The notes under the pieces: model-generated
Told to the model about the DNA's origin: nothing
The model's database searches: none
What the model saw: the letters and a program-made list of their open reading frames with translations, nothing else
Position numbers and translations under genes: made by a program
In this document: in pieces, positions 3,669 to 17,789 of the stretch
Layout of the letters: each line of letters opens with the position of its first letter
How positions within the stretch are numbered: position 1 is the stretch's first letter
From: Acidimicrobiales bacterium
GTDB taxonomy: Bacteria; Actinomycetota; Acidimicrobiia; Acidimicrobiales; JAHWLA01
Length of the DNA: 64,000 nt
Reading direction: 5' to 3'
Assembly: GCA_035536915.1 (NCBI GenBank)
Contig: DATLNE010000041.1
Coordinates: forward strand, 1 to 64,000

Positions 3669-5060
3669 CTACGGAGTTGTTGGGTGTCCGTTCCGGCCGA
3701 GCGGCAGGTCCACCACGAAGCGGCTGCCCTGGCCGGCCTCGGACTCCACCCGCACCGAGCCAGAGTGGGCCTCCACCACGGCAGCCACGATGGCCAGCCC
3801 CAGTCCGGTGCCGCCCGCGGCGCGAGAGCGCGACGCGTCTGCGCGGTAGAACCGCTCGAACACCCGGTCCGCCACCTCGGGCGCCATGCCCGGGCCTTGG
3901 TCGGCCACTTGGAGGCGGGCCACGCCGTCGCGGGCGGCGAGCGAGACGGCCACCGGCGTGCCCGGCGGCGTGTGCACACGGGCGTTGGCCAAGAGGTTGC
4001 CGACCACCTGGCGCAGGCGCTGTTCGTCGCCTTCGACCACCACGGGGGCGATGTCGAAGGTGACGGGGCGGTCGGGTTCGACGGCCTGCGCGTCGCGCAC
4101 GCTGTCGGCCACCACGGCGTCGAGTTGCACCGGTGCGCGCTCCAACGGTCGGCGCTGGTCGATGCGGGCCAGCAGCAGCAGGTCTTCGACCAAGGCGCCC
4201 ATGCGCTTGGCCTCGTCCTCCATTCGGCGCATGGCGTCGGCCAACTCGTCCTTCGACTGCAAGCCGCCCGCCCGCCACAACTCGGTGTAGCCCTGGATCG
4301 ACGTGAGCGGCGTGCGCAGTTCGTGCGAGGCGTCGGCGGCGAAACGACGCACGCGTGCCTCCGATTCCTCCCGCTCCTGGAAGGCCTCCTCGATGCGGCC
4401 GAGCATGGCGTTGAGGGCCGCGCCCAGGCGGCCCGCCTCGGTGCGTTCGTCGACGTGATCGATCCGTCGCGACAGTTCGCCTTCGGCGATCTCGTCGGCC
4501 GTCTTGGCCATCGACACCAGGGGGTCGATGCCGAGGCGGAGCATCCACCACGCCACCGTGGCCAAGGCCGCGAGCACGGCCAGGGTGCCCACTGCCTGCA
4601 CCCACCGCACCTGGGCCAGGGTGGCCTCCAATTCGCTGAGGCTCAGGCCCACCACCGCGGTGCGGCCGTCGGGCCCGGCTACGCCGACTAAGCGCCACTT
4701 GCCGTCGCCCGACGCGGCGGGGACGGTGAAGGGCCGGCGTGCTTGGCCGGCGCCGGTGACGTTGGCCGCCAGTTGCGACAGGTCGATCACCGGCGGCGGG
4801 CGTTCGTCGGCCTGGAGGACGGAGGCCACTGTGAAGATGCCGCCGCCTTCGATGACGGCGATGTAGTACTCGGTGAGCGCCTCGTTAGGGCGGCCGAGCA
4901 ACCCGCGGCGCCCCTGCACGGTCTCGCTGGCGGCGATGAGCTGCTTGTCGAGGCGGTCGTGGAGGAACGACGAGAACGTGCTGGAGATCGCCACGTTGGT
5001 GGCCACCAGCACGAGGGCGATGGCAGCCACGCCGATGATCACCCGGCGGCGGAGCGACAT
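3669..5060 (-). CDS. sensor histidine kinase (MprB/MtrB-like, HAMP + HisKA + HATPase)
   Basis: H-box HELRTPLTSIQGY, ATPase G-boxes (DQGPGM, GGTGLGLAIV), two TM segments; start MSLRRR chosen because its ATG overlaps the response regulator stop (ATGA at 5058-5062). Confidence 0.85.
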   Translation of the reverse strand: MSLRRRVIIGVAAIALVLVATNVAISSTFSSFLHDRLDKQLIAASETVQGRRGLLGRPNEALTEYYIAVIEGGGIFTVASVLQADERPPPVIDLSQLAANVTGAGQARRPFTVPAASGDGKWRLVGVAGPDGRTAVVGLSLSELEATLAQVRWVQAVGTLAVLAALATVAWWMLRLGIDPLVSMAKTADEIAEGELSRRIDHVDERTEAGRLGAALNAMLGRIEEAFQEREESEARVRRFAADASHELRTPLTSIQGYTELWRAGGLQSKDELADAMRRMEDEAKRMGALVEDLLLLARIDQRRPLERAPVQLDAVVADSVRDAQAVEPDRPVTFDIAPVVVEGDEQRLRQVVGNLLANARVHTPPGTPVAVSLAARDGVARLQVADQGPGMAPEVADRVFERFYRADASRSRAAGGTGLGLAIVAAVVEAHSGSVRVESEAGQGSRFVVDLPLGRNGHPTTP

Positions 5061-5737
5061 CAGGAGACCCGCAAGGAGTAGCCGACGCCGCGGACCGTGT
5101 GGATCAACGGCGGGCCCAGGCGGTCGACCTTCTTGCGCAGGTAGCTGATGTAGGTCTCGACCACCGTGGCGTGGCCGTCGAAGTCGTACTGCCACACGTG
5201 GTCGAGGATCTGGTTGCGCGACAGCACGCGGCCTGCGTTCACCAACAGGAAGCGGAGCAGCTTGTACTCGGTCGGAGACAGGTCGACGACGTGGCCCGCG
5301 CGGCGCACCACGTGGGCGTCGTCGTCCATCTCCAGGTCGGCAAGGGCGAGCTTGGCGCTGCCCGCGCTGACGCCTTGGCGGCGCAACAGCACGTGGATGC
5401 GGGCCACCACCTCTTCCAGGCTGAACGGCTTGGTGACGTAGTCGTCTCCGCCCAGAGTGAGGCCCCGCACCTTGTCGTCGACCGCGTCGCGGGCGGTGAG
5501 GAAGAGGACGGGAACCTGGACGCCGTCGAGGCGGAGGCGGCGGAGGATCTCGAAGCCGTCGAGGTCGGGCAGCATGACGTCGAGGAGGAGGACGTCGGGG
5601 GCGAACTGGGCCACCTCTTTGAGGGCGCCGCGCCCGTCTGAGGCCACCCGCACCTCGAAGCCGAAGTGGCGCAGTGCGGTGTCGAGGAGGAAGGTGATGT
5701 TGTCTTCGTCGTCGACCACGAGGACGCGGGCGGCCAT
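5060..5737 (-). CDS. OmpR-family response regulator (MprA/MtrA-like)
   Basis: MAARVLVVDDEDNI...DVMLPDLDGF receiver domain plus a C-terminal winged-helix (trans_reg_C); ATG verified at 5735-5737. Confidence 0.9.
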   Translation of the reverse strand: MAARVLVVDDEDNITFLLDTALRHFGFEVRVASDGRGALKEVAQFAPDVLLLDVMLPDLDGFEILRRLRLDGVQVPVLFLTARDAVDDKVRGLTLGGDDYVTKPFSLEEVVARIHVLLRRQGVSAGSAKLALADLEMDDDAHVVRRAGHVVDLSPTEYKLLRFLLVNAGRVLSRNQILDHVWQYDFDGHATVVETYISYLRKKVDRLGPPLIHTVRGVGYSLRVS

Positions 5738-5814
5738 CGCTGTCGATTCTGGCACCGGTTCCTGTGAACTTCCTGGGAACGCGGTGGGAGGTACCCGTGG
5801 GCTAAGACAGGGGG

Positions 5815-6234
5815 ATGGACATCCTCTACACCGCCGACGCCACGGCATGGGGCGGCCGCGACGGGCGCGTGGCGTCCTCCGACGGCGTGCTCGACGTACA
5901 ACTGGCAGTGCCCAAGGCGCTGGGCGGGCCGGGCGGCGAGGCCACCAACCCCGAGCAGTTGTTCGCCGCCGGGTATGCCGCCTGCTTCCACAGCGCGCTG
6001 AAGCTGGTGGCGTCGAAGGCGGGCATCGACGTGAGCGAGTCGGCCATCACCGCACGGGTGGGGATCGGCGCCACCGAGGGCGGGGCGTTCGGGCTGCAGG
6101 TCCACCTCGACGCCGAGTTGCCCGACGTGGAACGTGAGACCGCCGAGAAGCTGGTGGCCCGGGCGCACGAGGTGTGCCCATACTCCAACGCCACCCGCAA
6201 CAACGTCGAGGTTGTGCTGAGCGTCGTGGGGTAG
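5815..6234 (+). CDS. OsmC/Ohr family peroxiredoxin-like protein
   Basis: 139 aa; Ohr/OsmC signature (AAGYAACFHSAL...EVCPYSNATRNN); divergent from the response regulator. Confidence 0.85.
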   Translation: MDILYTADATAWGGRDGRVASSDGVLDVQLAVPKALGGPGGEATNPEQLFAAGYAACFHSALKLVASKAGIDVSESAITARVGIGATEGGAFGLQVHLDAELPDVERETAEKLVARAHEVCPYSNATRNNVEVVLSVVG

Positions 6235-6244
6235 CACGAGGCCG

Positions 6245-6697
6245 ATGGCCGCCGTCCCCGACCCGGATCACCAGCGTCCCGAGGGGGTCGACGACGTGGT
6301 GGTCGAGGCGGCAGGCAAGGTGTCGGAGGCCTTCGAGTGGCTGGAACGGGCACGAGGGCGGCTCTACGACTTCCATCACCTGATCGGCCGGGCCGACTTC
6401 GTCATGGAGGACGCCGCCGAACTGCTCGAACGGTGCGGTGCATGCGAGCTCGCCACCCTCTTGCGAGAAGAGGTGATCGGCCGCAACGTGCTCGACGGGC
6501 GGTGGACGTTCCAGGTGGTCGAGGAGTTCGACGCCGTCTACTTCCAAGCGGCCGCCGACGCCGAGCGCCGGGTGCGCGACGAACTCCTGGGCGGACGACG
6601 GCACGTGTTCGAGGCGGAGCTGAAGGAAAAGCGCCGCACGCCGAAGCGGCCAGGCCACGAGAGCCTGCCGCCGTCCCGCCACCTCGACGACGGGTAG
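6245..6697 (+). CDS. hypothetical protein ('gene A'; a partial, diverged copy of its 3' end lies at 8100-8445)
   Basis: 150 aa ORF with plausible composition; its 3' 340 nt recur at about 95% identity downstream. Confidence 0.5.
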   Translation: MAAVPDPDHQRPEGVDDVVVEAAGKVSEAFEWLERARGRLYDFHHLIGRADFVMEDAAELLERCGACELATLLREEVIGRNVLDGRWTFQVVEEFDAVYFQAAADAERRVRDELLGGRRHVFEAELKEKRRTPKRPGHESLPPSRHLDDG

Positions 6698-6702
6698 ATC
6701 GG

Positions 6703-6726
6703 TGTAAGCGTATACGCTTACACCGA
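6703..6726. promoter_or_regulatory. perfect 24-bp palindrome GGTGTAAGCGTATACGCTTACACC (candidate operator or terminator)
   Basis: read directly from the sequence, between the gene A stop and the HTH-XRE gene start. Confidence 0.45.
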
Positions 6727-7286
6727 TGCGGACCGATGCGCTTGTCGTCTCGCTGCGGCGCGACAGTCGGCTCTCCGTGCGCGCGCTGGCCGCCGCTGCG
6801 GGCGTGGCCGCCAGCACCGTCCACCGGATCGAACGAGGCGACCTGCACCCCACGGTGGAGCTGCTGGAGCGGATCACCAAAGCGGCCGGCATGCGCCTTC
6901 GCCTCGACACCGAGGTCGATTACGCAGCCAGCCTTGTCGGGCTGGCTCGATGCCTGGGTGACGGCGAGCCCATCCGCATGGCTGCCGAGCTCGCGCACCG
7001 CTACCGGGCCGCCGACAGCATCACCCGAGCGCGCATGATCACCGCGGAGCCTGCACCCACGGGTGACGAGCGGTGGGACGCCTTCCTGGGTGGGCTGGCC
7101 GAATGGTTGGCCGTGACCACCGACGAGGCTGCGCCGGGCTGGGTGCACGACGACAGCCGCTTCCTGGCTCGCGGGTGGTGGGTGACGCCGATGAGGTCGA
7201 TGCGGGCGTGGGAGTACGCGGGGACGCCTGCGGCGTTCAAGATTCGCGGCGTCTTCCTCCACCGCGACTCGTTGAGGAACGTGTAG
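6726..7286 (+). CDS. XRE-family helix-turn-helix transcriptional regulator (antitoxin-like)
   Basis: 186 aa; N-terminal HTH_XRE-like segment (LRRDSRLSVRALAAAAGVAASTVHRIERGD); translationally coupled to the next gene. Confidence 0.6.
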   Translation: MRTDALVVSLRRDSRLSVRALAAAAGVAASTVHRIERGDLHPTVELLERITKAAGMRLRLDTEVDYAASLVGLARCLGDGEPIRMAAELAHRYRAADSITRARMITAEPAPTGDERWDAFLGGLAEWLAVTTDEAAPGWVHDDSRFLARGWWVTPMRSMRAWEYAGTPAAFKIRGVFLHRDSLRNV

Positions 7287-7801
7287 TGCTCAGTCGGGAG
7301 CGGATACTCCGGCTGTTCGCCGAGCTCGACCAAGAGCTTCGACGCATCGACGTGCGCGGCGACGTGTTCGTCGTCGGGGGCGCGGCCATGACCGTGGCCT
7401 ACGACGCCCGCCCCGCCACCCGTGACGTCGATGCCATCTGGCACCCGTCGACCGAGGTTCGGGAGGCAGCGGCCGCTATTGCGGGGCGCCATGACGACCT
7501 CGAACCGGACTGGCTCAACGATGCCGTGAAGGGCTTCCTGCCCGGGCCCGACCCTGCGCCGCGGGTGGTCTACGACGGGGACTTCTTGAGCGTGTCGGCC
7601 GCGTCGCCCGAGTACCTCCTGGCCACCAAGCTCTTGGCCAGCCGGGTGAGTCGTGACGAGGCCGACATCGTGCTGCTCTACGACGTGTGCGGCCTGACAT
7701 CGGTCGACGAAGGGCTCGAGGTCGTCGAGCGCTACTACCCCGGGCGCCCGATCGAAGCCAAGGTGCGCTTCTTCCTCGAAGAACTCATCGGCGACGAGTG
7801 A
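7286..7801 (+). CDS. nucleotidyltransferase-like protein (DUF6036/AbiEii/MNT-like fold), partner of the XRE regulator
   Basis: GTG at 7286 overlaps the TAG of the upstream gene; 171 aa; NTase-like core (VFVVGGAAMTVAY...RDVDA); the start codon is inferred. Confidence 0.5.
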   Translation: MLSRERILRLFAELDQELRRIDVRGDVFVVGGAAMTVAYDARPATRDVDAIWHPSTEVREAAAAIAGRHDDLEPDWLNDAVKGFLPGPDPAPRVVYDGDFLSVSAASPEYLLATKLLASRVSRDEADIVLLYDVCGLTSVDEGLEVVERYYPGRPIEAKVRFFLEELIGDE

Positions 7802-7805
7802 CGCC

Positions 7806-8085
7806 TTACAACTTGGGCGCGGGGCCGAGGCGGGGGCGGGCGAAGCGGCCGATGCCTCGCGGCAGGTCGCCGGTGACGGTTGGCGCGGGGACCGACGGCG
7901 CCACCGGCGCGCGCCGGAACGGGCCGAGCAGTTGCGGCACGTGGCCGGGCGCCTGGAGCAGCCCGAGGTACATGAGGATCAGCCCGACCAGCACCATCGC
8001 CGAGACCACCTGCGGCGTGCGCTCGGTCGAGGCCCGTCGGCCCCCGGGCGGCAGTGTCGACGGCGGTGCCCACATCGAAGCTTTC
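7806..8085 (-). pseudogene. truncated, diverged copy of the 3' end of gene B (9195-10202); retains the C-terminal TM segment
   Basis: about 280 nt, roughly 95% identical to 9195-9475; carries an internal deletion relative to the full copy. Confidence 0.55.
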
Positions 8086-8099
8086 GAAGTCCTCGAGCC

Positions 8100-8445
8100 C
8101 GGTGGGCGGCTCGTACGACCTCCATCACCTGATCGGCCGGGCCGACTTCGTCATGGAGGACGCCGCCGAACTGCTCGAACGATCGGTGCATGCGAGCTCG
8201 CCACCCTCTTGCGAGAAGAGGTGATCGGCCGCAACGTGCTCGACGGCCGGTGGACGTTCCAGGTGGTCGAGGAGTTCGACGCCGTCTACTTCCAAGCCGC
8301 CGCCGACGCCGAGCGCCGGGTGCGCGACGAACTCCTGGGCGGACGACGGCACGGGTTCGAGGCGGAGCTGAAACAGAAGCGCCGTACCCCGAGGCGGCCA
8401 GGCCACGAAAGCCTGCCGCCGTCCCGCCACCTCGACGACGGGTAG
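8100..8445 (+). pseudogene. partial, frameshifted copy of the gene A 3' end
   Basis: about 95% identical to 6360-6697, with a 1-nt indel (cggtgcggtgcatg versus cgatcggtgcatg) that breaks the frame. Confidence 0.55.
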
Positions 8446-8509
8446 GACTCGCCGCTACCGCATGGCTCGTGGTGGTGGTCAAGGCGGCCCACCGCGACAC
8501 TTCCAGGTC

Positions 8510-8953
8510 TCATGCCGCTGGGGCTGTCCCCCCATGCGGAGTTGCGTGTCGCGGTTCAATGGCCTCACGGACGGTCACGGCGACAGCAAGGGTTCCCGGA
8601 AGGTAAGCCAAGCTGTCGGCACCTAGCGCCCCCATCACAGTGAAGGTTCCTGTCAGCGCCAAGGCAGCAACCAACAGGACACGCTCCCGACGCCGTAGAT
8701 AACGCTGCAGACAGAGGGCCATTGCTTCGGGCGGCAGCACCAGGAGCGCCGCCACCAGAGGACCATGCTTCGTCGTCAGCGACACTCGATGCGGCGCTGG
8801 CGTCACCTGTGAGCTTCGTCCGTTCTCGATCTTGGCTGTCGCTATGGCAAGGCGGGGCGACGAGTGCACTGACTGCGTAGGAAACGATGCGAGATAGGCC
8901 GATGCTCCCAGGGTCAAGAGAACGCTCGCGATGACGAATCGACGCAACTCCAC
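8510..8953 (-). CDS. hypothetical membrane protein (lower-GC cassette)
   Basis: 147 aa with several hydrophobic segments; local GC lower than the flanks; no recognisable family motif. Confidence 0.35.
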   Translation of the reverse strand: MELRRFVIASVLLTLGASAYLASFPTQSVHSSPRLAIATAKIENGRSSQVTPAPHRVSLTTKHGPLVAALLVLPPEAMALCLQRYLRRRERVLLVAALALTGTFTVMGALGADSLAYLPGTLAVAVTVREAIEPRHATPHGGTAPAA

Positions 8954-9045
8954 GCGCTCAGGGTAGTCCGTAGTCCGCCCGGCACACTTGGCTAGCTTCG
9001 GTGATCTATAACGTCCGCCTTGACGACGACCGAGAGAGCGTCGAC

Positions 9046-9085
9046 TGCTTCTCTGGTATGCGTATAGAGGTTCTCTGATATGCGT
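9046..9085. repeat. tandem direct repeat TATGCGTATAGAGG x2 in an AT-rich intergenic region
   Basis: ctggTATGCGTATAGAGGttctctgaTATGCGTATAGAGGcc read from the sequence. Confidence 0.5.
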
Positions 9086-9194
9086 ATAGAGGCCTTTGCT
9101 CGGGTTCGATTGGGAGGCGCCAAAGCACCCGCTAACAATGCCTACTGCTGGTACGGATAGAGCTTGCGTACCGCAATAGCTTCGTGGGGCAACG

Positions 9195-10202
9195 TCAGAG
9201 CTTGGGCGCAGGTCCGAGCCGGGGACGGGCGAAGCGGCCGATGCCTCGCGGCAGGTCGCCGGTGACGGTGGGCGCGGGGACCGACGGCGCCACCGGGGCG
9301 CGCCGAAATGGGCCGAGCAGTTGCGGCACGTGACCGGGCGCCTGGAGCAGCCCGAGGTACATGAGGATGAGCCCTACCAGCACCATGGCGGAGACCACCT
9401 GCGGCGTGCGCTCGGTCGAGGCCCGTCGGCCCCCGGGCGGCAGTGTCGACGCGGGCACTGCGGCCGACGGCCCGCTGGCCGGCCCGCTGGGTGCCACCGT
9501 CGCCTGGGTCGTCGGCAACGGCACCCCGTCCACCAGCAACGGCGGTGAGAACGTCTCGGTCGGCACCCCGAAGGCGGTGCCCGCATCGAAGCCCTCGAAG
9601 TCCTCGAACCCGGCGGGCGGCTCGTCGCCGTCGGACTGGCCCGGATACGTCGTCACGGTGATGGCGTCGGCGCCCGGCTTTTCGAACGCCACCTGGAACA
9701 CCTTGCCCGCCGTGGGTTGGAGCACGATGTTCAGCATTCCGTTGCGCACCAGTCCGCCTACGGGAAAGCGGACCTTGCCCGCGATCACCGAGCCGTAGGC
9801 CAACGCGCCGACCTCGCACGCGGGTGCCCGGTTCAGCGGCCCGCCCTCCTCGGGCGCCCACACCCGATTGGCGATGCACGCTTCCACGGCGATGTCGCCC
9901 TGCGCCTTGGGCTGGCCGGTCGTCTCGTCGGTGTCGATTGCCAGCACCAATTCGCCCACCGCTTGGTTGTCGTCGACCGGCAACCGCAGCGCGGACTTGC
10001 CGGCCGGCGCTGTGGGCTCGCCCGCCACGTAGAGCCCGCCCGGGTCGACGGGGCTGGGCGGCGAGGCGGGCAGGCCCAACGCTTCGCCCGACGCCGCCCA
10101 CCACCACGCCGTCGCCTCCGGCGCATCGGCACCCACCGGCAGCGGGCCGACGACCATGACGAACCCCGCCACCAACGCCACGACGCCCAGCAGCCGCCTC
10201 AC
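9195..10202 (-). CDS. secreted/membrane-anchored hypothetical protein ('gene B'), last gene of the Liv-like ABC operon
   Basis: GTG start overlaps the TGA of the upstream ATPase gene (GTGA at 10199-10202); N-terminal signal-like segment (RRLLGVVALVAGFVMVV) and a C-terminal TM (VVSAMVLVGLILMYLGLL). Confidence 0.5.
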   Translation of the reverse strand: MRRLLGVVALVAGFVMVVGPLPVGADAPEATAWWWAASGEALGLPASPPSPVDPGGLYVAGEPTAPAGKSALRLPVDDNQAVGELVLAIDTDETTGQPKAQGDIAVEACIANRVWAPEEGGPLNRAPACEVGALAYGSVIAGKVRFPVGGLVRNGMLNIVLQPTAGKVFQVAFEKPGADAITVTTYPGQSDGDEPPAGFEDFEGFDAGTAFGVPTETFSPPLLVDGVPLPTTQATVAPSGPASGPSAAVPASTLPPGGRRASTERTPQVVSAMVLVGLILMYLGLLQAPGHVPQLLGPFRRAPVAPSVPAPTVTGDLPRGIGRFARPRLGPAPKL

Positions 10203-13126
10203 GTGGCCACCCGCCGCCGGCGGCGTCCGCCGTGCCCGTTGCCGTTGCCGTTGACCGTGCCCGACCGGTTGACGGCAGCCACGTCGCCGCCCAGGTACGA
10301 CTCCACCACCCGCGGGTTGCTGATGACCTCGGCGGGCGTGCCCTCGGCGATCACCGCGCCCAGCTCCAGGGCCAGCATGCGGTCGGAGATCTCGGTGATG
10401 AGGGGCATGTCGTGCTCGATGACGAGCATGGCGCACCCGGTCTCGGCCCGGATGCGGCGCAGCAACGGTGCCAGCGCCTCGGTCTCCCGCTGGGCGATGC
10501 CCGACGACGGCTCGTCGAGGATCAGCACCGAGGGGTCGTGGGCGATCGCCATGGCCAGGTCGACGATGCGGCGGCTGCCGGTCGACAGTTCCCCCACGAA
10601 CTTGTCGCGGAAGGCGCCGAGGTTCATCAGTTCGACCAGGTCCTCGACGGTCCACGCGATGTCGTCCTCTTGGGCCTTGGCCTCCGGCAAGCCCAGCGCC
10701 GAGGCGATGTGGTCACGCACCTCGAGGTGGCGCTCCAGCCCCATGGCCAGGTTCTCGGCCACGGTGAGGCTGGGGAAGATGCGGGCGTCCTGGAACGAGC
10801 GCCCCAGGCCGGCCCGGGCCCTTCGGTCGGGCGACCATGAACTGACCTCGACGCCTTCGAAATAGATGCGGCCGCCGTCGGGAGCCGTGAAGCCCGACAC
10901 CAGGTCGAACACCGACGTCTTGCCCGCGCCGTTGGGGCCGATGAGGCCGAGGATCTCCCCGCGCCACAAGTCGAAGGTCACGTCGTCGACGGCACGGATG
11001 CCGCCGAAGCGCTTGGAGATGCCGTTCACGGCCAGGATGGGCTCGTCGGCGCGGTCGATGTCGCCCTCGGTCGGCGCCGCACGGCGCGCCACCCGGCCGC
11101 CCGCCCCTTCGAGGAACACCGAGCGCAGGATGTCGCCCCGCTCGAGCAGTTCTTCGGTCGGCCCCGAGAAACGCACCTCGCCTTTCTCCAGGAAGTACGC
11201 CCGCTGGGCCAGCGTCAACGCCACGTTCACCGACTGCTCCACCACGATCACCGTGGCGCCCTGCTGGTTGATGTGGCGCACCATGTCGAGTAGCTGTTCG
11301 ACGATGGTGGGCGCCAAGCCCAACGACAGCTCGTCGATCATCAGCAGCTTGGGCCGGGCGATGAACGACATGCCCAACGCCAGCATCTGCTGCTCCCCGC
11401 CCGACAAGTTGCCGGCGAGCTGGTCCCACCGCTCGCGCAGGCGCGGGAACCGTTCGAGCACCTCGTCGGTCGCCTGCCGCACCCGCTCCTGCTCGTCGGC
11501 GAACAACCACGCCGCCACCCGGAAGTGCTCGGCCACGCTCAGCGTGGGGAACACGCCGCGGCCGCCCGGCATCTGGACGATGCCGAGCTTGGTCGACTGC
11601 ACGGCGTCGGCGTGGGTGATGTCGCGCCCCGCGAAGAAGACGGCCCCGCCGATGGGGTCGACGACGCCGCTGATGGCTTTCAGCAAGGTTGACTTGCCCG
11701 CGCCGTTGGTGCCCAGCAGGGCCACGATCTCGCCCTCACGGATCTCCAGGTCGACGCCGAAGAGCACTTGGACGGAGTCGTAGGCGACATCGACGCCCCG
11801 GCACGTGAGCAGCGCCTGCTGGCCGCTCTCCGCCAACTCCTCGCGCAGCCGCACCGCCGTGGCCAAGGTGGCGGCTGCTTGCGCGGCGTCGCGGGCGACG
11901 AAGCGGTAGGCGGAGTAGGCCAGCGCGCCACCCAGCACCAGCAGGGCCGACAAGACGCTGACGGCGACCCGGTAGCCCGCGTCGGAGTCGCCGATGGAGG
12001 CGATCAGCGGCGACAGCAAGCCGCCGAGGCCGAGGTAGAGGATGGCCCAGGCAAAGCCCTGCGAGCGCACCCGCGGCGGCGACACCAGGCCGACCAGCGG
12101 GAAGTAGTTGGGCTGGTACGCCCCGATGCCGATGCCCGCCACGAAGTTGAAGAACAACGACAGGCCCGACCAAGGCGAGACCGCCATGGCCAGCAACCCG
12201 CCGCCGATGAGCATGTACGACAGGCCGTTGTAGCGGGCCAGCTTGGGCAGGTCGCCCGCGGTCAACGCCCGGCCTGCCAACCGCTGTCCGTACAACAGGC
12301 CGACGACGGTGCCGAGGCCGGAGGCGAACACCACCATGCCCCGTCCCTGGGCCTCGAAGCCGTACTCCTGCTCGAAGAACAGCACCACGAGCTGCGTGAG
12401 GGTCAGCGCCCCGATGCCGAGTAGGAAGATGCCCGCCCACAACCGGCGCAGGGTGCGCACGGCGAACAGTTGGCGGCGGGCTTCACCGAACGGGACGGGC
12501 TCCAGCAGCGCGGCCTCGGCCGCCACGCCCGCGTCGACGCTCTCGCCCCGTAAGGGTTCGCGCAGCTTCACCAACATGGCGACGAGCACGAACGTGGGCA
12601 CCGCCAGGACGACGAACACGAAGCGCCAGTCCCACATCGAACCCAGCGCGCCGATGACGACGGCCGAGCCGAGCCCGATGGGGTTGGCCATGCGGTGGAA
12701 GGCGAAGACCTGCGGGTGGGTCGACGGGGCGTAGTAGTCGGAGAGCAGGCTGGCGTGCACCGGCTCGTTGATGATGCGCCCGACGGCGGCACCCATGCGG
12801 GCCACGATGAGCACGCCGATCACCGGGGCCAAGCCGGTGAGGATGGCCATGGTGCCCCACAGGAAGGCGGCGATGGCCGACAGGCGCACGCGCTTCACCC
12901 GGTCGGCGGTGAACCCGATGGGCAGGGCGGCCAACAGCGCCGTCACCGCGGCCAGCGAACCGACGGCGACGATGCCTTCGTCGGACAGGTTGAAGGCGTC
13001 GCGGATTTCCGGGGTCAGCACGCCGAAGGCGACCCGGTCGAACTCGTCGACCAGGTTGAGCCCGAAGAGGACGAGCAGCGGCAGCGCCGAGCCGCCGCCG
13101 GTAATGCGGTCGAGGCGCTCCTTCAC
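10199..13126 (-). CDS. fusion protein: N-terminal MFS-like 12-TM domain + LivG-like + LivF-like ABC ATPase domains
   Basis: 975 aa; roughly 430 aa polytopic N-terminus, then two Walker A sites (GTNGAGKST, GPNGAGKTS) and ABC signature LSGGEQQ / LSTGSRR. Confidence 0.8.
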   Translation of the reverse strand: MKERLDRITGGGSALPLLVLFGLNLVDEFDRVAFGVLTPEIRDAFNLSDEGIVAVGSLAAVTALLAALPIGFTADRVKRVRLSAIAAFLWGTMAILTGLAPVIGVLIVARMGAAVGRIINEPVHASLLSDYYAPSTHPQVFAFHRMANPIGLGSAVVIGALGSMWDWRFVFVVLAVPTFVLVAMLVKLREPLRGESVDAGVAAEAALLEPVPFGEARRQLFAVRTLRRLWAGIFLLGIGALTLTQLVVLFFEQEYGFEAQGRGMVVFASGLGTVVGLLYGQRLAGRALTAGDLPKLARYNGLSYMLIGGGLLAMAVSPWSGLSLFFNFVAGIGIGAYQPNYFPLVGLVSPPRVRSQGFAWAILYLGLGGLLSPLIASIGDSDAGYRVAVSVLSALLVLGGALAYSAYRFVARDAAQAAATLATAVRLREELAESGQQALLTCRGVDVAYDSVQVLFGVDLEIREGEIVALLGTNGAGKSTLLKAISGVVDPIGGAVFFAGRDITHADAVQSTKLGIVQMPGGRGVFPTLSVAEHFRVAAWLFADEQERVRQATDEVLERFPRLRERWDQLAGNLSGGEQQMLALGMSFIARPKLLMIDELSLGLAPTIVEQLLDMVRHINQQGATVIVVEQSVNVALTLAQRAYFLEKGEVRFSGPTEELLERGDILRSVFLEGAGGRVARRAAPTEGDIDRADEPILAVNGISKRFGGIRAVDDVTFDLWRGEILGLIGPNGAGKTSVFDLVSGFTAPDGGRIYFEGVEVSSWSPDRRARAGLGRSFQDARIFPSLTVAENLAMGLERHLEVRDHIASALGLPEAKAQEDDIAWTVEDLVELMNLGAFRDKFVGELSTGSRRIVDLAMAIAHDPSVLILDEPSSGIAQRETEALAPLLRRIRAETGCAMLVIEHDMPLITEISDRMLALELGAVIAEGTPAEVISNPRVVESYLGGDVAAVNRSGTVNGNGNGHGGRRRRRVAT

Positions 13127-15486
13127 CGGCGCACCTCCTCGATCACCAAGTCGTCCTCGGCGGCCACCGCCCGCACCCGATGCCGAGACCGACGAGCCCG
13201 GAGGCGAGCCGCTTCAGGGCGGAAGTGCTCGTGCGTCGCCACCCGTTCGACGGGCACGTGCTCCTCGCACGCCGGGCAGATGATCACCGAGTCGGGCAGT
13301 TCCAACAGTGCACGGCCCGCGCCCACTTCTTCGCCGACCTCGGTGAGCAAGTCGGGATCGGTGCCCGACACCGGCCGGCCCTGTTCTTCCAGCGAGTCGG
13401 CCACCAGGCTGGGCACGTGGATGCCGCGACGAGCCGCCACCCAGCGCAGGAAGCTGTCGCGCGCCCGGTAGCCAAGTTCGGCCAGGCCCCCGGGGAAGAA
13501 CAGCAACAGGACCATCAAGCCGACGCCGGTCGTCAGCAGGTCGAAGAACTCGATGGTGCGGAAGAACGGGAAGCGCTGGAACACGATCAAGTAGGCCGCC
13601 CCAGCGACCGCGCCACCGACCGAGGTGAGCCCGCCCACCACGGTCATGGCGAAGACCTTGATGGAGTCGACGGGCGGATAGGCGTTCACGTCCAACGCCC
13701 CCTGCTGGTACACGAACAACGCGCCCGCCACCGCGGCCATGAAGCCGGAGATGGCGAAGGCGGCCAGACGGGTGCGTGACAGGTTCACGCCGTACGACTG
13801 CGCGGCACGGGGGTTGGCCCGCACGGCGATCATCACCCGCCCCGAGCGACTCGACCTGATCTGCCGGGCCATCACGATCATCAGCACCAGGAAGACAAGG
13901 CACACGTAGTAGAAGACCAAGTCGTTGCCGGTGTCGATGCGGCCGTAGATCTTGGGGCGGTAGACAATGCCGCCCTCCGGCGGGAGCATCCAGCCGAAGA
14001 AACGCCGGTCGAGCAGGAAGGCCTGCGTGGTCCCGGCAAACGCCAAGGTGGTGACGGCCAAGAACAAGCCCTGCACGCGCAGCGCAGGCAGGCCCACCAG
14101 CACAGCGACGACGGCGCCCACCATGCCCGCCACGATGATGGTGACGAAGAAGTCGGCCTGGTGGTTGGCCGCCAGGCCCCCTGCCACCCCGGCGCCGACG
14201 CCGACGAAGGCGAATTGGCCGAGGCTGATCTGCCCTGCCCATCCCGTCAGTACCACCAGCGACACGCCGACCATCGCGTAGATCAACAACAGCGAGGCGT
14301 CGTTGCGATAGAGGCGTCCCACCAGGAACGGCAGGCCCACTGCGAGTCCGGCGGCCAGCGCCAGAACGAGCGTCCGCGCGCCCAGTACCTCGCGCACGTT
14401 GCGCAACTCCGAGGGGATGGGACGGAACTCTTTCACCGTGCGCCACGTCGTCACGCCCGTGTCGTGCGCCCGCCCCGCGCTCTGCCGCTGCAGCAACAGG
14501 GCCACGAGGATGATCGGCAGCATCATCGCCTGGCTCAGCACCGAGTTGCGGGTGCTGTAGTACATGGCGAAGTCCATGCCGCCGATGGCCATGCCCGCCA
14601 CGAAGGCCACGGGCAGGCTCTGCATGCGGGCGACCATGGCGGCGGCCAGTGCATAGAGCAGCACGCTCGGCCCGATGATGGTGCCGAACGACAGCCCGAC
14701 GAGCGGCGCCCGCAGGAAGATGCCGACTGCCGACAGCAGCGCCGCGAGCATCCACACCAGCGTCGACACTCGACGCACAGGGACGCCCAGCAACGACGCT
14801 CGCTCGGCGTTTTCCGCCGACGCTCGCACGGCGATGCCGATGCGGGTGAGGCGGAAGAACAACCCGAGGGCCACCACGATCACGCCGACGACGAGCAAGG
14901 CCACGACGTGGTCGCCCTTGAGCACGGTCCCGCCGAAGGTGAACCGCCAACTGCTGAACGGGGTCGGGAAGTCGGCGGGCGGCAGCGCGTCACCGGTGAT
15001 CCACCCGGGGATGTTGAACTCCACGTAGGCGAGCAGTTGCCCGATGCCGATGGTGACGACAGCGAGGATCAGGCGGGGCGCTTGCGTGAAGCGGCGCACG
15101 ACGAGGAAGTCGACCAACCCGCCGAGCACCAGCGACCCCACCACCACGAGCAAGAGCGCGGCCCAATACGGCCACCCCTTGGTGGTGACCAGGACGACGC
15201 CGAGGGTGGCAGGTGCGGCACCGAGTCCGGCCTGGGCGAAGTTCACCACCTGGTTGGCCCGGTACACCAGGATCAGGCCCATGGCGATGAGGCCGTAGAG
15301 AGCACCGATCACGACGCCGTACGCCACGATGCCGGTCGGCATGCGGCCGGGCAGGGCCAGGTTCAACAGGTTCGGGTAGACGACGATGGCGGCGAGCCAG
15401 ATGAAGACCCACGCCGCGGCCGCGCTCGCCCCGCCGCCGCGCAGGAAGCGCGTGGTCGCCGCGCCCGCGTCGCGGACGGCTGTCAC
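13123..15486 (-). CDS. branched-chain amino-acid type ABC permease, fused LivH-LivM domains
   Basis: 787 aa polytopic protein with two BPD_transp_2-like halves; ATGA overlaps on both sides. Confidence 0.8.
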   Translation of the reverse strand: MTAVRDAGAATTRFLRGGGASAAAAWVFIWLAAIVVYPNLLNLALPGRMPTGIVAYGVVIGALYGLIAMGLILVYRANQVVNFAQAGLGAAPATLGVVLVTTKGWPYWAALLLVVVGSLVLGGLVDFLVVRRFTQAPRLILAVVTIGIGQLLAYVEFNIPGWITGDALPPADFPTPFSSWRFTFGGTVLKGDHVVALLVVGVIVVALGLFFRLTRIGIAVRASAENAERASLLGVPVRRVSTLVWMLAALLSAVGIFLRAPLVGLSFGTIIGPSVLLYALAAAMVARMQSLPVAFVAGMAIGGMDFAMYYSTRNSVLSQAMMLPIILVALLLQRQSAGRAHDTGVTTWRTVKEFRPIPSELRNVREVLGARTLVLALAAGLAVGLPFLVGRLYRNDASLLLIYAMVGVSLVVLTGWAGQISLGQFAFVGVGAGVAGGLAANHQADFFVTIIVAGMVGAVVAVLVGLPALRVQGLFLAVTTLAFAGTTQAFLLDRRFFGWMLPPEGGIVYRPKIYGRIDTGNDLVFYYVCLVFLVLMIVMARQIRSSRSGRVMIAVRANPRAAQSYGVNLSRTRLAAFAISGFMAAVAGALFVYQQGALDVNAYPPVDSIKVFAMTVVGGLTSVGGAVAGAAYLIVFQRFPFFRTIEFFDLLTTGVGLMVLLLFFPGGLAELGYRARDSFLRWVAARRGIHVPSLVADSLEEQGRPVSGTDPDLLTEVGEEVGAGRALLELPDSVIICPACEEHVPVERVATHEHFRPEAARLRARRSRHRVRAVAAEDDLVIEEVRR

Positions 15487-17213
15487 TCGGGTGCCCGAGG
15501 CTCGCCCGCCCCCCAGCTACCGAGCTCCCAGCGACGGCCCCCCTCGACGGCGATGTACGCACCGGTCCCGCCGTCGATCTTCGACTTGGCTGCCGGGTCC
15601 CAGTAGGTGTGCCGAGAGTCCTGGATGGCCGTGTAATCGCCTGGGCCGAACTTCACCATGACCGACGCCGGGTCGCGCGTGCGCTCCCACCCGCCGCTCG
15701 ACGGCAGGCTGAGCATGCCCCGCTCCACGTTCGTCGGGGTCAGGTTCGGCCCCGCCATCTGGATCTGGCTCGACACCAGCGACATGTAGGCGTACAGGAG
15801 GTTGGCGCCGGAGTAGAGGCCGGTGACGCCCACGTCGGCGGCGGCTCGGGCGGCATCGCTGTCGTTGAACGGGATGGGGTCGGCCAAGTGTCCTGGCCCG
15901 AAGGCATTGCGCCACTGCGACGTCTCGTACAGCCGCCCCAGCACGTCGTAGTCGATGAGCCCGGACCCGGCGAGCAGGTGCTCGGGGTACCAGCCTTGAG
16001 CCGTCGCTGCGTTGGTGAAGAACCGGGGGCCGATGGGGTCGGACAGGAAGACGACGGTCGTCGCCCCGTCGTCCTTCAGCTTCTGCATGGCTGTGGCCGC
16101 CGTCTCCTGTGCCTTGGTGATGTCGGAGGGCGTGGTAACGGGCTCGACGGCATCGCCTGGGCGACCGCACATGCCTCCTGTCACCAGGTTCACCAGGTCG
16201 ACGGCGTTCTTCTGGGTGTACTCGTACCTTTGGGTTACGACGCCGAGCACCCGCCGCTTGGCCCGGATGTCGGGGGTGCCCGCCAAGGTGGCGTTCTTGC
16301 CAGACATCTTCTTGCACCAGTAGCTGGCCAGGTGCTGCACGGTGCGGGTGCCGTCGACGAACACGTCCCAGTGGTAGGGCCGGTTCCGTGTGACGAAGTC
16401 GTTGTGGAAGTGCCAGCCCCCGATGTTGACGACGCCCAGCGCCGTCCACTGCTCGAAGACTTCGCCCTGCACCGTCGAGTTCGTCCAGAACACGGCGAAC
16501 GGTGTGTGCTCCTGGTTGAGGCGCTTTGCCTCATCCCGGAAGCAGGCGACATCTGGAGGCGTGATCTCGCACTTCCCCTGGACGAAGATCCAGTTGATCT
16601 TGCGGCCGTAGAACTCGTAGTGCTTGTCGAAGAACTTGGCGAAGGCCTCGCGGGCCTTCTTCTCTTCTTCGGGGGACGACGCCAGGCCCTGGGTGCGCAG
16701 GATGGCGTCGACCTGCTCGTTCGACTTGGGCCGGTAGTGGATGACCTTGACGGCCTCGGCGGACACGCCGCGGTAGGTGGCGCCGCCGTTGTCGCCTGTC
16801 CACCGGGGGACGCAGGGCGGCGATGTGCGGGTCACGTCCTGCTGGCGCACGCCGTCCTTGGCGCACTTGCTCTTGTCGGTGGAGAGCTTGCCGGTGGCAG
16901 TGCCGGAGCGCGTGCCCCCTCCCGTCGCGCCTGACCCGGTGCCGCCCGTGGCGCTCGTACCGCCTGGCCCGCCGCCCGCAGCACCGCCGCCCGCGGCGAC
17001 ATCGTCAGCCGTGCCTGCGATGCCGTCGGCGCCGAGGCCTGCCTCCGGGTCGAAGGCGCCGGGGCCGGCCGTCAGTTCGTCGCCACGGGAGCCGGGGCCG
17101 CCCGTCGACGGCACGAGCGCCACCAACAGGACTTGGACCCCCGCCAGGATCAGGAATGGCGCATACCGCCGCGCCAGGGAGCCGGGAACCGCCAACGTAC
17201 TGCCCCTTCCCAT
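15483..17213 (-). CDS. ABC transporter substrate-binding protein (Liv/periplasmic binding protein type I-like) with a G/T/A-rich low-complexity linker
   Basis: 576 aa; N-terminal TM/signal segment, long low-complexity linker, then a PBP1-like domain; first gene of the operon. Confidence 0.7.
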   Translation of the reverse strand: MGRGSTLAVPGSLARRYAPFLILAGVQVLLVALVPSTGGPGSRGDELTAGPGAFDPEAGLGADGIAGTADDVAAGGGAAGGGPGGTSATGGTGSGATGGGTRSGTATGKLSTDKSKCAKDGVRQQDVTRTSPPCVPRWTGDNGGATYRGVSAEAVKVIHYRPKSNEQVDAILRTQGLASSPEEEKKAREAFAKFFDKHYEFYGRKINWIFVQGKCEITPPDVACFRDEAKRLNQEHTPFAVFWTNSTVQGEVFEQWTALGVVNIGGWHFHNDFVTRNRPYHWDVFVDGTRTVQHLASYWCKKMSGKNATLAGTPDIRAKRRVLGVVTQRYEYTQKNAVDLVNLVTGGMCGRPGDAVEPVTTPSDITKAQETAATAMQKLKDDGATTVVFLSDPIGPRFFTNAATAQGWYPEHLLAGSGLIDYDVLGRLYETSQWRNAFGPGHLADPIPFNDSDAARAAADVGVTGLYSGANLLYAYMSLVSSQIQMAGPNLTPTNVERGMLSLPSSGGWERTRDPASVMVKFGPGDYTAIQDSRHTYWDPAAKSKIDGGTGAYIAVEGGRRWELGSWGAGEPRAPE

Positions 17214-17285
17214 AAAGGTTCAGTGACAGTGCAAATAATATGACGTCGGTCACATCTATACCTGTCGCGAGGGGCGGTTCAATCC

Positions 17286-17789
17286 TCAGGCAGGCGTCAG
17301 CGGCGTCTCCAACTCCCACTCGCCGTGGTCCAGGCGGGTCGAGGTCTCGGGTGCGAGGCGGCGGGCGATGGCCATCATGCGGCGGTTCTCGCCCATCACG
17401 GTGGCGGTGAGGGCCTTGACGCCGTGGCGCTTGGCGTCGCCGGCCAAAGTGTTGAGCAGCACCTTGCCCAGGCCGCGACCCTGCCAGGCGTCCTCCACCA
17501 CAATCGCCACCTCGGCCCGGTCGGGGGCGTCGCGGAAGCGGTCGTAGCGGGCCACGCCGACGATCTCGCCGTCGACCTCGGCGGCCAGGGCCTGGCGCTT
17601 GTCGTGGTCGACGTCGGCCAGGTAGTGCAGCACCCGGGGCGAGGGCTCGCTCACCGACTGCAGGAAGCGGAGCCGCACGGTCTCGGGCGAGAGGCGGAAG
17701 AACAGGCGCCGGAGGCCGTCCACGTCGGAAGCGTCGAGCTCACGGAGGACGACCGCCGTGCCGTCGGGGAGGGTGCGGTTCTTTTGCAC
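17286..17789 (-). CDS. GNAT family N-acetyltransferase
   Basis: 167 aa; acetyl-CoA binding motif (WQGRGLGKVLLNTLAGDAKRHG). Confidence 0.8.
   Translation of the reverse strand: MQKNRTLPDGTAVVLRELDASDVDGLRRLFFRLSPETVRLRFLQSVSEPSPRVLHYLADVDHDKRQALAAEVDGEIVGVARYDRFRDAPDRAEVAIVVEDAWQGRGLGKVLLNTLAGDAKRHGVKALTATVMGENRRMMAIARRLAPETSTRLDHGEWELETPLTPA

What the first reader, a model, noticed from the sequence alone, without database searches (positions are those of the whole stretch)
6245..10202. Mosaic locus: diverged duplicate gene-end flanks bracketing two different cassettes, with a chimeric B/A junction
The 3' ends of gene A (6360-6697, + strand) and gene B (9195-9475, - strand) each recur as roughly 95%-identical partial copies (A' 8100-8445, B' 7806-8085). 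B' and A' are joined head-to-head at about 8086-8100. The join falls at the microhomology gggcggctcg, which occurs in both genes, and this is the signature of a tandem-duplication junction. The sequence enclosed by each flank pair differs: unit 1 holds an HTH-XRE + nucleotidyltransferase pair, and unit 2 holds a lower-GC membrane-protein gene plus an AT-rich repeat region. The two units look like one slot carrying alternative cargo. The roughly 5% divergence means this is old or was acquired by recombination with a related allele. A' is frameshifted and B' is truncated.
Basis: seen in the sequence. Interest (0 to 1): 0.65.

Follow-up and report, generated by a model that had tools for sequence, protein, structure and literature searches.

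The report
Two-allele tandem locus joined by microhomology
In an uncultivated Acidimicrobiales genome, two versions of the same variable gene slot, each with its own cargo and about 5% diverged flanks, sit in tandem and are joined at a 9-base microhomology; this looks like a preserved intermediate of cargo swapping between related strains, a clear example of a known process rather than a new kind of system.

Summary
A 3' end (6365-6697) recurs at 8114-8445 (about 96%, 1-nt frameshift). B 3' end (9195-9451) recurs at 7806-8062 (95%). After a 122-nt out-of-frame deletion, B 9569-9625 recurs at 8058-8114 (89%). These are the only repeats in the 64-kb window.

The single novel joint lies at 8104-8114, on GGGCGGCTC, which A and B share. 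Unit 1 carries an HTH-XRE + DUF6036 nucleotidyltransferase pair with a conserved palindrome. Unit 2 carries a rare, low-GC3 membrane-protein gene and a 22-nt tandem repeat.

The key new result is that all 15 differences between B' and B over the last 84 codons are synonymous. The copies therefore diverged as working genes in separate lineages, not by decay in place.

Relatives show the OsmC/A-to-B gap is hypervariable: Kelch gene, Panacea-domain gene, or nothing.

Best explanation: a diverged allele of the whole slot was imported and integrated by one homologous crossover plus one microhomology joint. That fits homology-facilitated illegitimate recombination or an equivalent route. The resulting merodiploid can resolve to either cargo. 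An assembly artefact is unlikely but was not excluded with reads.

Known kind, modest interest.

The parts
6245..6697 (+). Gene A, intact, 150 aa. Conserved helical protein of unknown function. Left flank of the slot.
   Evidence: ORF. 2785 homologs, identical to an Acidimicrobiales MAG protein. No Pfam, NCBIfam or PADLOC hit. AlphaFold2 pLDDT 87, helical, no PDB fold match.
6356..6364 (+). GGGCGGCTC in A: the microhomology used at the joint
6365..6697 (+). A 3' segment, the unit-1 copy of the left repeat
6698..6727 (.). 30-nt perfect palindrome ATCGGTGTAAGCGTATACGCTTACACCGAT, starting right after the A stop codon and overlapping the HTH ATG. Probable operator of the C1 module.
   Evidence: Sequence. 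DNA fold z-score -5.6. Core AGCGTATACGCTTAC is invariant upstream of HTH homologs in L012-L015.
6726..7286 (+). Cargo 1, gene 1: XRE-type HTH protein, 186 aa
   Evidence: PF13560 36.2 bits and PF01381 31.5 bits. Paired with the nucleotidyltransferase in 9 metagenome contigs.
7286..7801 (+). Cargo 1, gene 2: DUF6036 nucleotidyltransferase, 171 aa. Its start overlaps the HTH stop by 1 nt (TAGTG).
   Evidence: PF19502 31.3 bits, above the 23.6 cut-off. AbiEii gives only 15.8 bits, below the 22.5 cut-off. Homologs at 54-76% in L011-L021.
7806..8062 (-). B' part 1: copy of the last 84 codons plus stop of B. 16 nt differences: 15 in the 84 codons, all synonymous, and 1 in the stop codon (TAA vs TGA).
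8063..8113 (-). B' part 2: copy of B 9574-9624, reached across a 122-nt out-of-frame deletion. 5 differences, 4 of them non-synonymous, in a region that varies among homologs.
   Evidence: (D7)
8104..8114 (.). The novel joint GGGCGGCTCGT. Positions 8104-8112 are the microhomology, G8113 comes from B, and T8114 is shared.
8114..8445 (+). A': 5'-truncated copy of A codons 41-150, with a 1-nt deletion near 8182-8184
8510..8953 (-). Cargo 2: 147-aa membrane protein of a very rare family, with atypical composition
   Evidence: GC3 0.64. Three hydrophobic segments. Only 2 hits among 1.84 billion representatives, the best at 40% identity and E 3e-12. No hit in the word-index search.
9049..9092 (.). 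Two tandem 22-nt units TTCTCTG(G/A)TATGCGTATAGAGG in the GC 0.55 spacer upstream of the cargo-2 gene. Probable regulatory site.
   Evidence: (D19)
9195..10202 (-). Gene B, intact, 335 aa. Signal or N-terminal hydrophobic segment, a variable linker, and a conserved C-terminal membrane anchor and tail. Its start overlaps the stop of the upstream ABC gene. Right flank of the slot.
9615..9623 (+). GGGCGGCTC in B: the microhomology used at the joint

Best explanation
Two alleles of one hypervariable chromosomal slot are present side by side in one genome. The slot is the gap between the convergent genes A and B.

The most likely route is that DNA from a related lineage, about 5% diverged in the flanks (dS 0.1-0.2), carrying the same flanks but a different cargo, entered the cell. 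One end recombined homologously within a flank gene. The other end was joined illegitimately at the GC-rich 9-nt microhomology GGGCGGCTC, which A and B happen to share. This is homology-facilitated illegitimate recombination. A circularised fragment integrated by a single crossover would give an identical product.

The product is A5'-[A3'-C1-B'] | [A'-C2-B3']-B5'. A and B stay intact, and a dead B'/A' pair sits in the middle. Because A/A' (333 nt, 96%) and B'/B (257 nt, 95%) are direct repeats, RecA-type recombination can later delete either C1+B'+A' or B'+A'+C2. The structure is therefore an unresolved allelic-exchange intermediate.

Shown: the anatomy, the microhomology joint, the synonymous-only divergence, the variability of the slot in relatives, and the independence of cargo 1 from this slot.

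Inferred: the import, the route (one-step illegitimate joint rather than circle or two steps), which unit is the newcomer (weak hint: unit 2), and the future resolution.
For: Anatomy and uniqueness of the repeats.

The joint lies on one of only 11 shared 9-mers between A and B, which is 2.5e-5 of all breakpoint pairs.

B' versus B over the last 84 codons:
- 15 nt differences, 14 of them in codon position 3, and 84 of 84 amino acids identical; dS 0.21, dN about 0.
- With S = 77.8 and N = 174.2 sites, 15 of 15 synonymous has a probability of about 2e-8 under no constraint.
- It is about 1e-5 if only the intact copy were constrained. Both figures are my calculation.

A versus A': 7 synonymous to 4 non-synonymous changes, dN/dS 0.18.

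The non-synonymous differences in B' part 2 fall in the linker that also varies among homologs, while the C-terminal 84 aa are highly conserved.

The slot varies in relatives. L006 has A-Kelch-B, L007 has OsmC-SocA_Panacea-B, L005 has OsmC directly beside B, and L001 lacks B entirely.

Cargo 1 travels as a pair with its palindrome in unrelated contexts. Cargo 2 has foreign composition, GC3 0.64.

Outgroup polarisation: the unit-2 copies carry 15 derived states against 5 in the unit-1 copies, in both flanks, and 10 of these are GC>AT. This fits unit 2 as one coherent imported segment.

An independent Logan assembly of run SRR8544467 reproduces 6668-7866 at 100%. It ends exactly where the k=31 runs shared with A' and B begin, so both branch types are in the reads.

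The mechanism is documented experimentally. One homologous anchor plus a 3-10 bp microhomology is described in PMC6382021, which cites de Vries & Wackernagel 2002, Prudhomme 2002 and Meier & Wackernagel 2003. Merodiploids arising from transformation are described in PMC3784515.
Against: - No parental single-cargo allele with matching SNPs was found. The cluster of the A protein has one member, and the nearest A and B relatives are 86% and 81% identical.
- The joint 31-mer is absent from the JGI metagenome and GTDB genome collections, so the joint rests on one contig.
- The three routes (one-step illegitimate joint, circle plus single crossover, duplication then allelic replacement) give the same sequence and cannot be told apart.
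- Natural competence or any other DNA uptake route is unknown for this organism.
- The A/A' pattern alone does not reject neutral decay (p about 0.1).
- The polarisation signal is weak (15 against 5, outgroups 15-20% diverged), and GC3 differences between copies are small.
- The 122-nt deletion and the frameshift need extra events or a more complex joint.
Confidence: 0.6

Rival explanations
1. Two steps. An ordinary microhomology-mediated tandem duplication of A3'-cargo-B3' arose first. One unit was then replaced by homologous recombination with a diverged allele from a related strain that carried a different cargo.
For: The final sequence would be the same. The microhomology joint is typical of spontaneous duplications. 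The allelic origin of one unit is supported by the synonymous-only divergence.
Against: It needs two rare events. It also needs an unstable 1.5-kb perfect tandem duplication to survive long enough to be hit by the second event; that such duplications are lost quickly is established knowledge, not tested here. The replacement tract would have to end inside both short flank copies without removing the joint.
Confidence: 0.2
2. An old duplication in place. The copies diverged about 5% within this lineage and one cargo was exchanged later. The 89-aa B' ORF (7806-8075) is kept by selection as a small membrane protein, which would explain its synonymous-only differences.
For: B' retains an open 89-aa frame with an ATG and the conserved membrane anchor and tail. 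A' carries a frameshift and derived non-synonymous changes, as a decaying copy would.
Against: - A tandem duplication with long identical repeats is not expected to persist to dS about 0.1-0.2 (established knowledge, not tested here).
- At polarised synonymous sites the intact B 3' end is the more derived copy, 8 against 3 for B'. This is the opposite of what is expected if B' were the freer copy.
- An extra precise cargo replacement at both stop codons is still required.
- No stand-alone B' product is on record.
Confidence: 0.08
3. Assembly or library artefact. Two co-existing strains with different cargo were stitched together through a chimeric read or fragment.
For: The source is a metagenome-assembled genome. 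Both A-to-C1 and A'-to-C2 branch k-mers occur in one sequencing run, as two strains would also produce. The joint was not found in any other assembly.
Against: - Assemblers do not join on 9-11 nt, so the joint k-mers must be present in reads (inference).
- The sequences at the joint are not those of intact genes. B' has a 122-nt out-of-frame deletion and A' a frameshift within 70 nt of the joint. This is expected for dead remnants in a real tandem, not for a second strain's working genes.
- It is the only such structure in 64 kb.
Confidence: 0.08
4. A dedicated cassette system, integron-like or another site-specific recombinase hotspot, stacks cargo units separated by a B'/A' spacer.
For: Cargo boundaries fall exactly at the stop codons of A and B. 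Several different cargos occupy the slot in relatives.
Against: - There are no tRNA genes in the window and no Rfam hits in 5500-10800.
- The genes checked around the slot are a two-component system, OsmC, an ABC transporter and a GNAT. None has a recombinase domain.
- The two cargo units share no common end motifs or attC-like inverted repeats.
- The spacer is simply gene fragments joined at a microhomology.
Confidence: 0.03

Closest known systems
Homology-facilitated illegitimate recombination (HFIR) during natural transformation (Acinetobacter baylyi, Streptococcus pneumoniae, Pseudomonas stutzeri)
   Same: Foreign or diverged DNA is integrated with one end in a homologous anchor and the other at a short GC-rich microhomology. 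The reported range is 3-10 bp (PMC6382021); here it is 9 bp with 8 of 9 bases G/C. The result is added DNA next to the anchor.
   Different: - Here it is seen only as a footprint in a metagenome-assembled actinobacterial genome.
- The donor is an allele of the same locus, so the product mimics a tandem duplication.
- The anchor crossover cannot be located.
- The uptake route is unknown.
Merodiploid tandem duplications generated by transformation in S. pneumoniae (Johnston et al. 2013, PMC3784515)
   Same: A haploid bacterium ends up with a partial tandem duplication that can carry two different alleles, is expected to be unstable, and has one novel joint.
   Different: There the joint is a hybrid of two long IS861 repeats about 96% identical and the duplications span 100-900 kb. 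Here the joint is a 9-nt microhomology between two unrelated genes and the units are 1.5-1.7 kb.
Single-crossover (Campbell-type) cointegrate of laboratory allelic exchange
   Same: The topology is the same: flank-cargo1-flank' | flank''-cargo2-flank. It can resolve by a second crossover to either allele.
   Different: There is no vector backbone. The two inner flank ends are fused directly.
Replacement-type flexible genomic islets or horizontal-transfer hotspots between conserved flanking genes
   Same: Conserved flanks (OsmC/A and B-ABC) carry unrelated cargo in different relatives. Homology stops at the flank genes' stop codons.
   Different: Such slots normally hold one variant per genome. 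Here two variants are caught together with the joint that links them.
AbiE / MenAT-type nucleotidyltransferase toxin-antitoxin pairs (for cargo 1 only)
   Same: It is a two-gene operon with overlapping stop and start. A DNA-binding first gene with a palindromic operator at its start is followed by a small nucleotidyltransferase. The pair is found in many unrelated contexts.
   Different: The nucleotidyltransferase matches DUF6036, not AbiEii, which is below its cut-off. The partner is an XRE HTH, not an AbiEi-type winged helix. There was no PADLOC hit for the transferase. Toxicity is untested.

Membership tests
Simple microhomology-mediated tandem duplication | Two head-to-tail units with a single novel joint linking the distal end to the proximal start | tested here: met
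   Unit 1 is 6365-8113 and unit 2 is 8114-9625. There is one joint, at 8104-8114.
Simple microhomology-mediated tandem duplication | Short sequence identity of the two parental sites at the joint | tested here: met
   GGGCGGCTC at A 6356-6364 and B 9615-9623. Only 2.5e-5 of breakpoint pairs have a shared 9-mer.
Simple microhomology-mediated tandem duplication | The two units are copies of each other | tested here: not met
   The interiors, 6698-7805 and 8446-9194, are unrelated. The flanks differ by 4-6%, with a pattern of purifying selection.
Homology-facilitated illegitimate recombination product | Illegitimate joint at a 3-10 bp, usually GC-rich, microhomology | tested here: met
   9 bp, 8 of 9 G/C. 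The reported range is taken from PMC6382021.
Homology-facilitated illegitimate recombination product | Inserted DNA is of foreign or diverged origin | tested here: met
   Synonymous-only divergence of the flank copies. Unit-2 copies share an excess of derived states. Cargo 2 has GC3 0.64.
Homology-facilitated illegitimate recombination product | The other end is integrated by RecA-dependent homologous recombination in an anchor next to the joint | not testable with these tools
   The topology is compatible, with the anchor in B upstream of 9625 or in A upstream of 6365. No parental sequence exists to map a crossover.
Homology-facilitated illegitimate recombination product | DNA uptake by natural transformation | not tested
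   Competence genes were not looked for, and the organism is uncultivated.
Horizontal-transfer hotspot / replacement islet | Same conserved flanks with different cargo in related genomes | tested here: met
   L006 Kelch, L007 SocA_Panacea, L005 empty, the window C1 and C2.
Integron-type cassette array | Integrase, attI and attC-like imperfect inverted repeats at cassette ends | tested here: not met
   No recombinase domain in the checked genes around the slot. The two cargos share no end repeats. The whole window was not scanned gene by gene.
AbiE (type IV) toxin-antitoxin | Toxin belongs to the AbiEii / DUF1814 nucleotidyltransferase family (PF08843) | tested here: not met
   15.8 bits against a cut-off of 22.5. 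DUF6036 is met at 31.3 bits against 23.6. No PADLOC hit.
AbiE (type IV) toxin-antitoxin | Upstream autoregulating DNA-binding antitoxin, bicistronic | tested here: inconclusive
   An XRE HTH gene overlaps the transferase start by 1 nt and has a conserved palindrome at its own start. It is not an AbiEi-type domain, and regulation and neutralisation are untested.

The most novel reading that the evidence does not exclude
The locus is a naturally preserved heteroallelic merodiploid, the physical intermediate of cargo exchange at a hotspot. It was made in one step by homology-facilitated illegitimate recombination in an uncultivated actinobacterium. It may be held in this state because deleting unit 1 would remove an addictive HTH-nucleotidyltransferase pair. 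If so, the population can resolve it towards either cargo, or mostly towards loss of cargo 2.
Probability: 0.25. Interest if true: 0.5.

Novelty: new member of a known kind. Interest (0 to 1): 0.35.

Why it matters
Cargo turnover at chromosomal hotspots is normally inferred by comparing finished states in different genomes. Here both states and the joint that links them are present in one molecule. That gives a concrete, datable example of how a diverged allele with new cargo can enter through one homologous and one microhomology crossover, in a lineage with no genetics (Acidimicrobiales).

It also illustrates a general test. Synonymous-only divergence in a truncated gene copy distinguishes imported alleles from in-place decay.

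Practically, it warns annotators that the B'/A' fragments are remnants and that this region may be polymorphic in the population.

It does not reveal a new type of system.

Tried and rejected
- **Exact look-ups.** Gene A, its identical database entry P0001, the cargo-2 ORF and the B' ORF were looked up in the contig index. None is on record.
- **Joint 31-mer.** It was searched in JGI metagenome contigs and GTDB genome contigs, with no match. There is therefore no independent assembly of the joint, and the source genome is not in those sets.
- **B profile in GTDB genomes.** Only two distant loci were found, at 49% and 30%. They were of no use for the slot.
- **Cargo-2 ORF.** The word-index homolog search found nothing. 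The exhaustive search found only two weak relatives.
- **Annotation scans.** Rfam on 5500-10800 and a tRNA scan of the whole window found nothing. The promoter and terminator scan gave nothing above shuffles.
- **Gene A.** Its function was sought by AlphaFold2 plus Foldseek against PDB and by sequence against PDB. The model is confident and helical but has no meaningful match.
- **Nucleotidyltransferase against PDB by sequence.** Nothing found.
- **GC3 comparison.** Comparing repeat copies to identify the imported unit gave differences too small to use.
- **GCGTATA motif.** It is shared by the C1 palindrome and the C2 22-mers. There are four occurrences, all in this locus, but about 2.8 are expected from composition, so I treat it as probably chance.
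- **Inverted repeat around the cargo-2 ORF.** The 22-nt, 82% inverted repeat 8466-8487 / 9015-9036 (I19) is of the same quality as many chance pairs in this GC-rich DNA, so I did not read it as transposon ends.
- **Literature.** The de Vries & Wackernagel 2002 paper could not be read, and no paper mentions DUF6036.

Full report
**1. What is in the sequence**

Window 6245-10202 lies between a two-component system plus OsmC on the left (3669-6234) and a fused Liv-type ABC transporter operon on the right (10199-17213).

Gene A (6245-6697, +, 150 aa) and gene B (9195-10202, -, 335 aa) converge on the region.

Self-comparison of the whole 64-kb window finds only two repeated segments of 60 nt or more:
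- 6356-6697 = 8104-8445, 95.9% over 343 nt.
- 9201-9451 = 7812-8062, 94.8% over 251 nt.

A third, shorter match continues the B copy: 8058-8114 = 9569-9625 at 89% (family D7). The offsets, 1389 against 1511, show a 122-nt deletion in the copy, which is not a multiple of three.

The layout is therefore A5' (6245-6364), unit 1 [A3' 6365-6697, cargo 1 6698-7805, B' 7806-8113], unit 2 [A' 8114-8445, cargo 2 8446-9194, B3' 9195-9625], then B5' (9626-10202).

A' lacks the first 40 codons and has a 1-nt deletion near 8182-8184. B' lacks the first 192 codons or so and is out of frame across the 122-nt deletion.

**2. The joint**

The sequence at 8104-8119 is GGGCGGCTCGTACGAC. B reads GGGCGGCTCGTcgcc (9615-) and A reads GGGCGGCTC-TACGAC (6356-).

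The exact shared stretch is 9 nt. G8113 comes from B and T8114 is shared.

A and B share only eleven 9-mers on this strand, which is 2.5e-5 of all possible breakpoint pairs. A joint that lands on one of them is a microhomology joint, not a coincidence.

**3. The cargo**

*Cargo 1* is an XRE-type HTH gene (6726-7286; HTH_31 36 bits, HTH_3 31.5 bits) followed by a DUF6036 nucleotidyltransferase (7286-7801; 31.3 bits against a cut-off of 23.6). The AbiEii model is below its cut-off. The stop and start overlap by one base.
- A 30-nt perfect palindrome (6698-6727) begins at the base after the A stop codon and overlaps the HTH ATG. It folds far better than shuffles, z -5.6.
- Homologous HTH + transferase pairs occur in nine JGI metagenome contigs, with the transferase 54-76% identical and the HTH 54-61%.
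- Their neighbours there are unrelated: epimerase, aromatic-ring hydroxylase, thioesterase, STAND NTPase.
- The palindrome core AGCGTATACGCTTAC is invariant upstream of four of them.
- Cargo 1 is thus a self-contained, probably autoregulated, toxin-antitoxin-like module. It occurs in many contexts and is not tied to this slot.

*Cargo 2* is a 147-aa ORF (8510-8953, -) with three hydrophobic segments.
- Its GC3 is 0.64, against 0.87-0.95 for all neighbours.
- The word-index search gave no homologs. Among 1.84 billion representatives there were only two, the best at 40% identity and E 3e-12.
- Upstream lies a 241-nt spacer of GC about 0.55 with two tandem 22-mers, 9049-9070 and 9071-9092.

**4. 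Divergence pattern, the decisive result**

Over the last 84 codons, B and B' differ at 15 nucleotides. Fourteen are in codon position 3 and one is part of a Leu CTC/TTG pair. The encoded peptides are identical, 84 of 84; dS is 0.21 and dN effectively 0.

With 77.8 synonymous and 174.2 non-synonymous sites:
- 15 of 15 synonymous has a probability of about 2e-8 without constraint.
- It is about 1e-5 if only the intact copy had been constrained. Both are my arithmetic.

A truncated, out-of-frame fragment cannot have been under such constraint while it sat there. The divergence must therefore pre-date the truncation, so B' and B3' are alleles that evolved as working genes in separate lineages.

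A against A' gives 7 synonymous to 4 non-synonymous changes (dN/dS 0.18). This points the same way but is not significant on its own.

The four non-synonymous differences in B' part 2 lie in the linker that also varies among B homologs, whereas the C-terminal anchor and tail are strongly conserved.

Polarising the differences with outgroups (L001, L005-L007) assigns 15 derived states to the unit-2 copies and 5 to the unit-1 copies. This holds in both flanks, and ten of the unit-2 states are GC>AT. It is a weak hint that unit 2, including the low-GC3 cargo 2 and the 3' end of the intact B, is the imported block. GC3 differences between the copies are too small to add anything.

**5. The slot in relatives**

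The window is from an Acidimicrobiales metagenome-assembled genome. A is identical to a protein with locus tag VM938_11435.
- In L006 (B 81%, A 87%) the order is A, a Kelch-repeat gene, then B.
- In L007 (B 67%) it is OsmC, a SocA_Panacea gene, then B.
- In L005 (B 79%, ABC 95.5%) OsmC abuts B with 62 nt between and there is no A.
- In L001-L004 (A 86%) A is followed by a GNAT gene. The whole block corresponding to window 6698-17230 is missing.

Homology between the units ends at the stop codons of A and B.

**6. Mechanism**

Three routes give exactly this sequence:
- (a) One-step homology-facilitated illegitimate recombination. A linear fragment of a diverged allele anchors homologously in B upstream of 9625, or in A upstream of 6365. 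Its other end joins at the microhomology.
- (b) The fragment circularises at the microhomology and integrates by a single crossover.
- (c) A spontaneous tandem duplication arises and one unit is then replaced by an allele.

I favour (a) or (b) because each needs a single rare event. The joint also fits the 3-10 bp GC-rich microhomologies reported for this reaction (PMC6382021). Merodiploids formed during transformation are documented (PMC3784515), although there the joints are long IS repeats.

An old in-place duplication is disfavoured for three reasons:
- Long perfect tandem repeats are unstable (established knowledge, not tested here).
- The intact B 3' end, not B', is the more derived copy.
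- A second precise cargo replacement would still be needed.

That model survives only if the 89-aa B' ORF is itself a selected gene.

Because A/A' and B'/B are direct repeats, the present structure can collapse to A-C2-B or A-C1-B. It has the form of an allelic-exchange intermediate.

If cargo 1 is an addiction module, loss of unit 1 would be counter-selected. That could help explain why the structure persisted long enough to be sampled. This last point is speculation.

**7. Is it an artefact?**

An independent Logan assembly of run SRR8544467 contains window 6668-7866 at 100% identity. It breaks exactly where 31-mers become shared with A' (30-nt overlap at 6668-6697) and with B (after 7866). 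Both branch types are therefore in the reads. This is expected for the tandem, but also for two strains.

Against a chimera:
- No assembler joins on 9-11 nt.
- The fragments at the joint carry lesions, a 122-nt out-of-frame deletion and a frameshift, that a second strain's working genes would not have.

The joint itself could not be found in any other assembly, so read-level confirmation is still needed. I put the artefact at under 10%.

**8. Comparison and verdict**

The closest known phenomena are homology-facilitated illegitimate recombination products, transformation-generated merodiploids, laboratory single-crossover cointegrates, and replacement-type hotspots.

It fails the test for a simple tandem duplication because the units are not copies. 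It also fails the test for an integron-type array, since there is no recombinase and no common cassette ends.

It meets the testable features of an illegitimate-joint import at a hotspot. Cargo 1 resembles AbiE/MenAT-type pairs in organisation but fails family membership.

This is a well-resolved natural instance of known processes, not a new kind of element. Interest is modest.

Noticed in passing
window 6698-17230: The whole block from cargo 1 through B and the ABC transporter operon has no counterpart in the closest relative (L001). There A is followed directly by the GNAT gene that sits at 17286-17789 in the window. In L005 the same genes are arranged differently again. The neighbourhood is rearranged on a larger scale than the finding.
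   Followed up: partly
window 10199-13126 (-) and 13123-15486 (-): A 975-aa protein combines an MFS_1 membrane domain (residues 21-286) with two ABC ATPase domains and the branched-chain C-terminal motif. The next gene, 787 aa, has two BPD_transp_2 stretches. This is a fused Liv-type transporter with an MFS-like N-terminus, which is an unusual architecture.
   Followed up: no
window 9195-10202 vs L005: B evolves much faster than its neighbours. It is 79% identical in amino acids, against 95.5% for the adjacent ABC protein, 93% for the response regulator and 87% for OsmC. The change is concentrated in the linker, and the C-terminal anchor and tail are almost invariant.
   Followed up: partly
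window 6245-6697: Gene A belongs to a large family of 2785 homologs that is mostly found next to OsmC. It has no Pfam or NCBIfam model. The AlphaFold2 model is confident (pLDDT 87) and shows a long helical hairpin bundle with no PDB match.
   Followed up: partly
window 6708-6714, 9060-9066, 9082-9088: GCGTATA occurs in the 64-kb window only in the cargo-1 palindrome and in each of the two cargo-2 22-mers. About 2.8 occurrences are expected from composition, so it is probably chance. However, it would allow the cargo-1 HTH protein to bind in cargo 2.
   Followed up: partly
L007 2426-2965; L006 1242-2423: The cargo in the same slot of relatives is a SocA_Panacea antitoxin-domain gene in L007 and a Kelch-repeat gene in L006. 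Counting cargo 1, two of the four known cargos are toxin-antitoxin-like.
   Followed up: no
L008 (Logan SRR8544467_2270897) = window 6668-7866: The ends of the independent contig coincide to the base with the start of 31-mers shared between the repeat copies. This is a useful pointer to the sequencing run in which the joint can be checked.
   Followed up: yes
window 8466-8487 / 9015-9036: A 22-nt, 82% complementary inverted repeat brackets the cargo-2 ORF (I19). It is of the same quality as many chance pairs in this GC-rich DNA.
   Followed up: no
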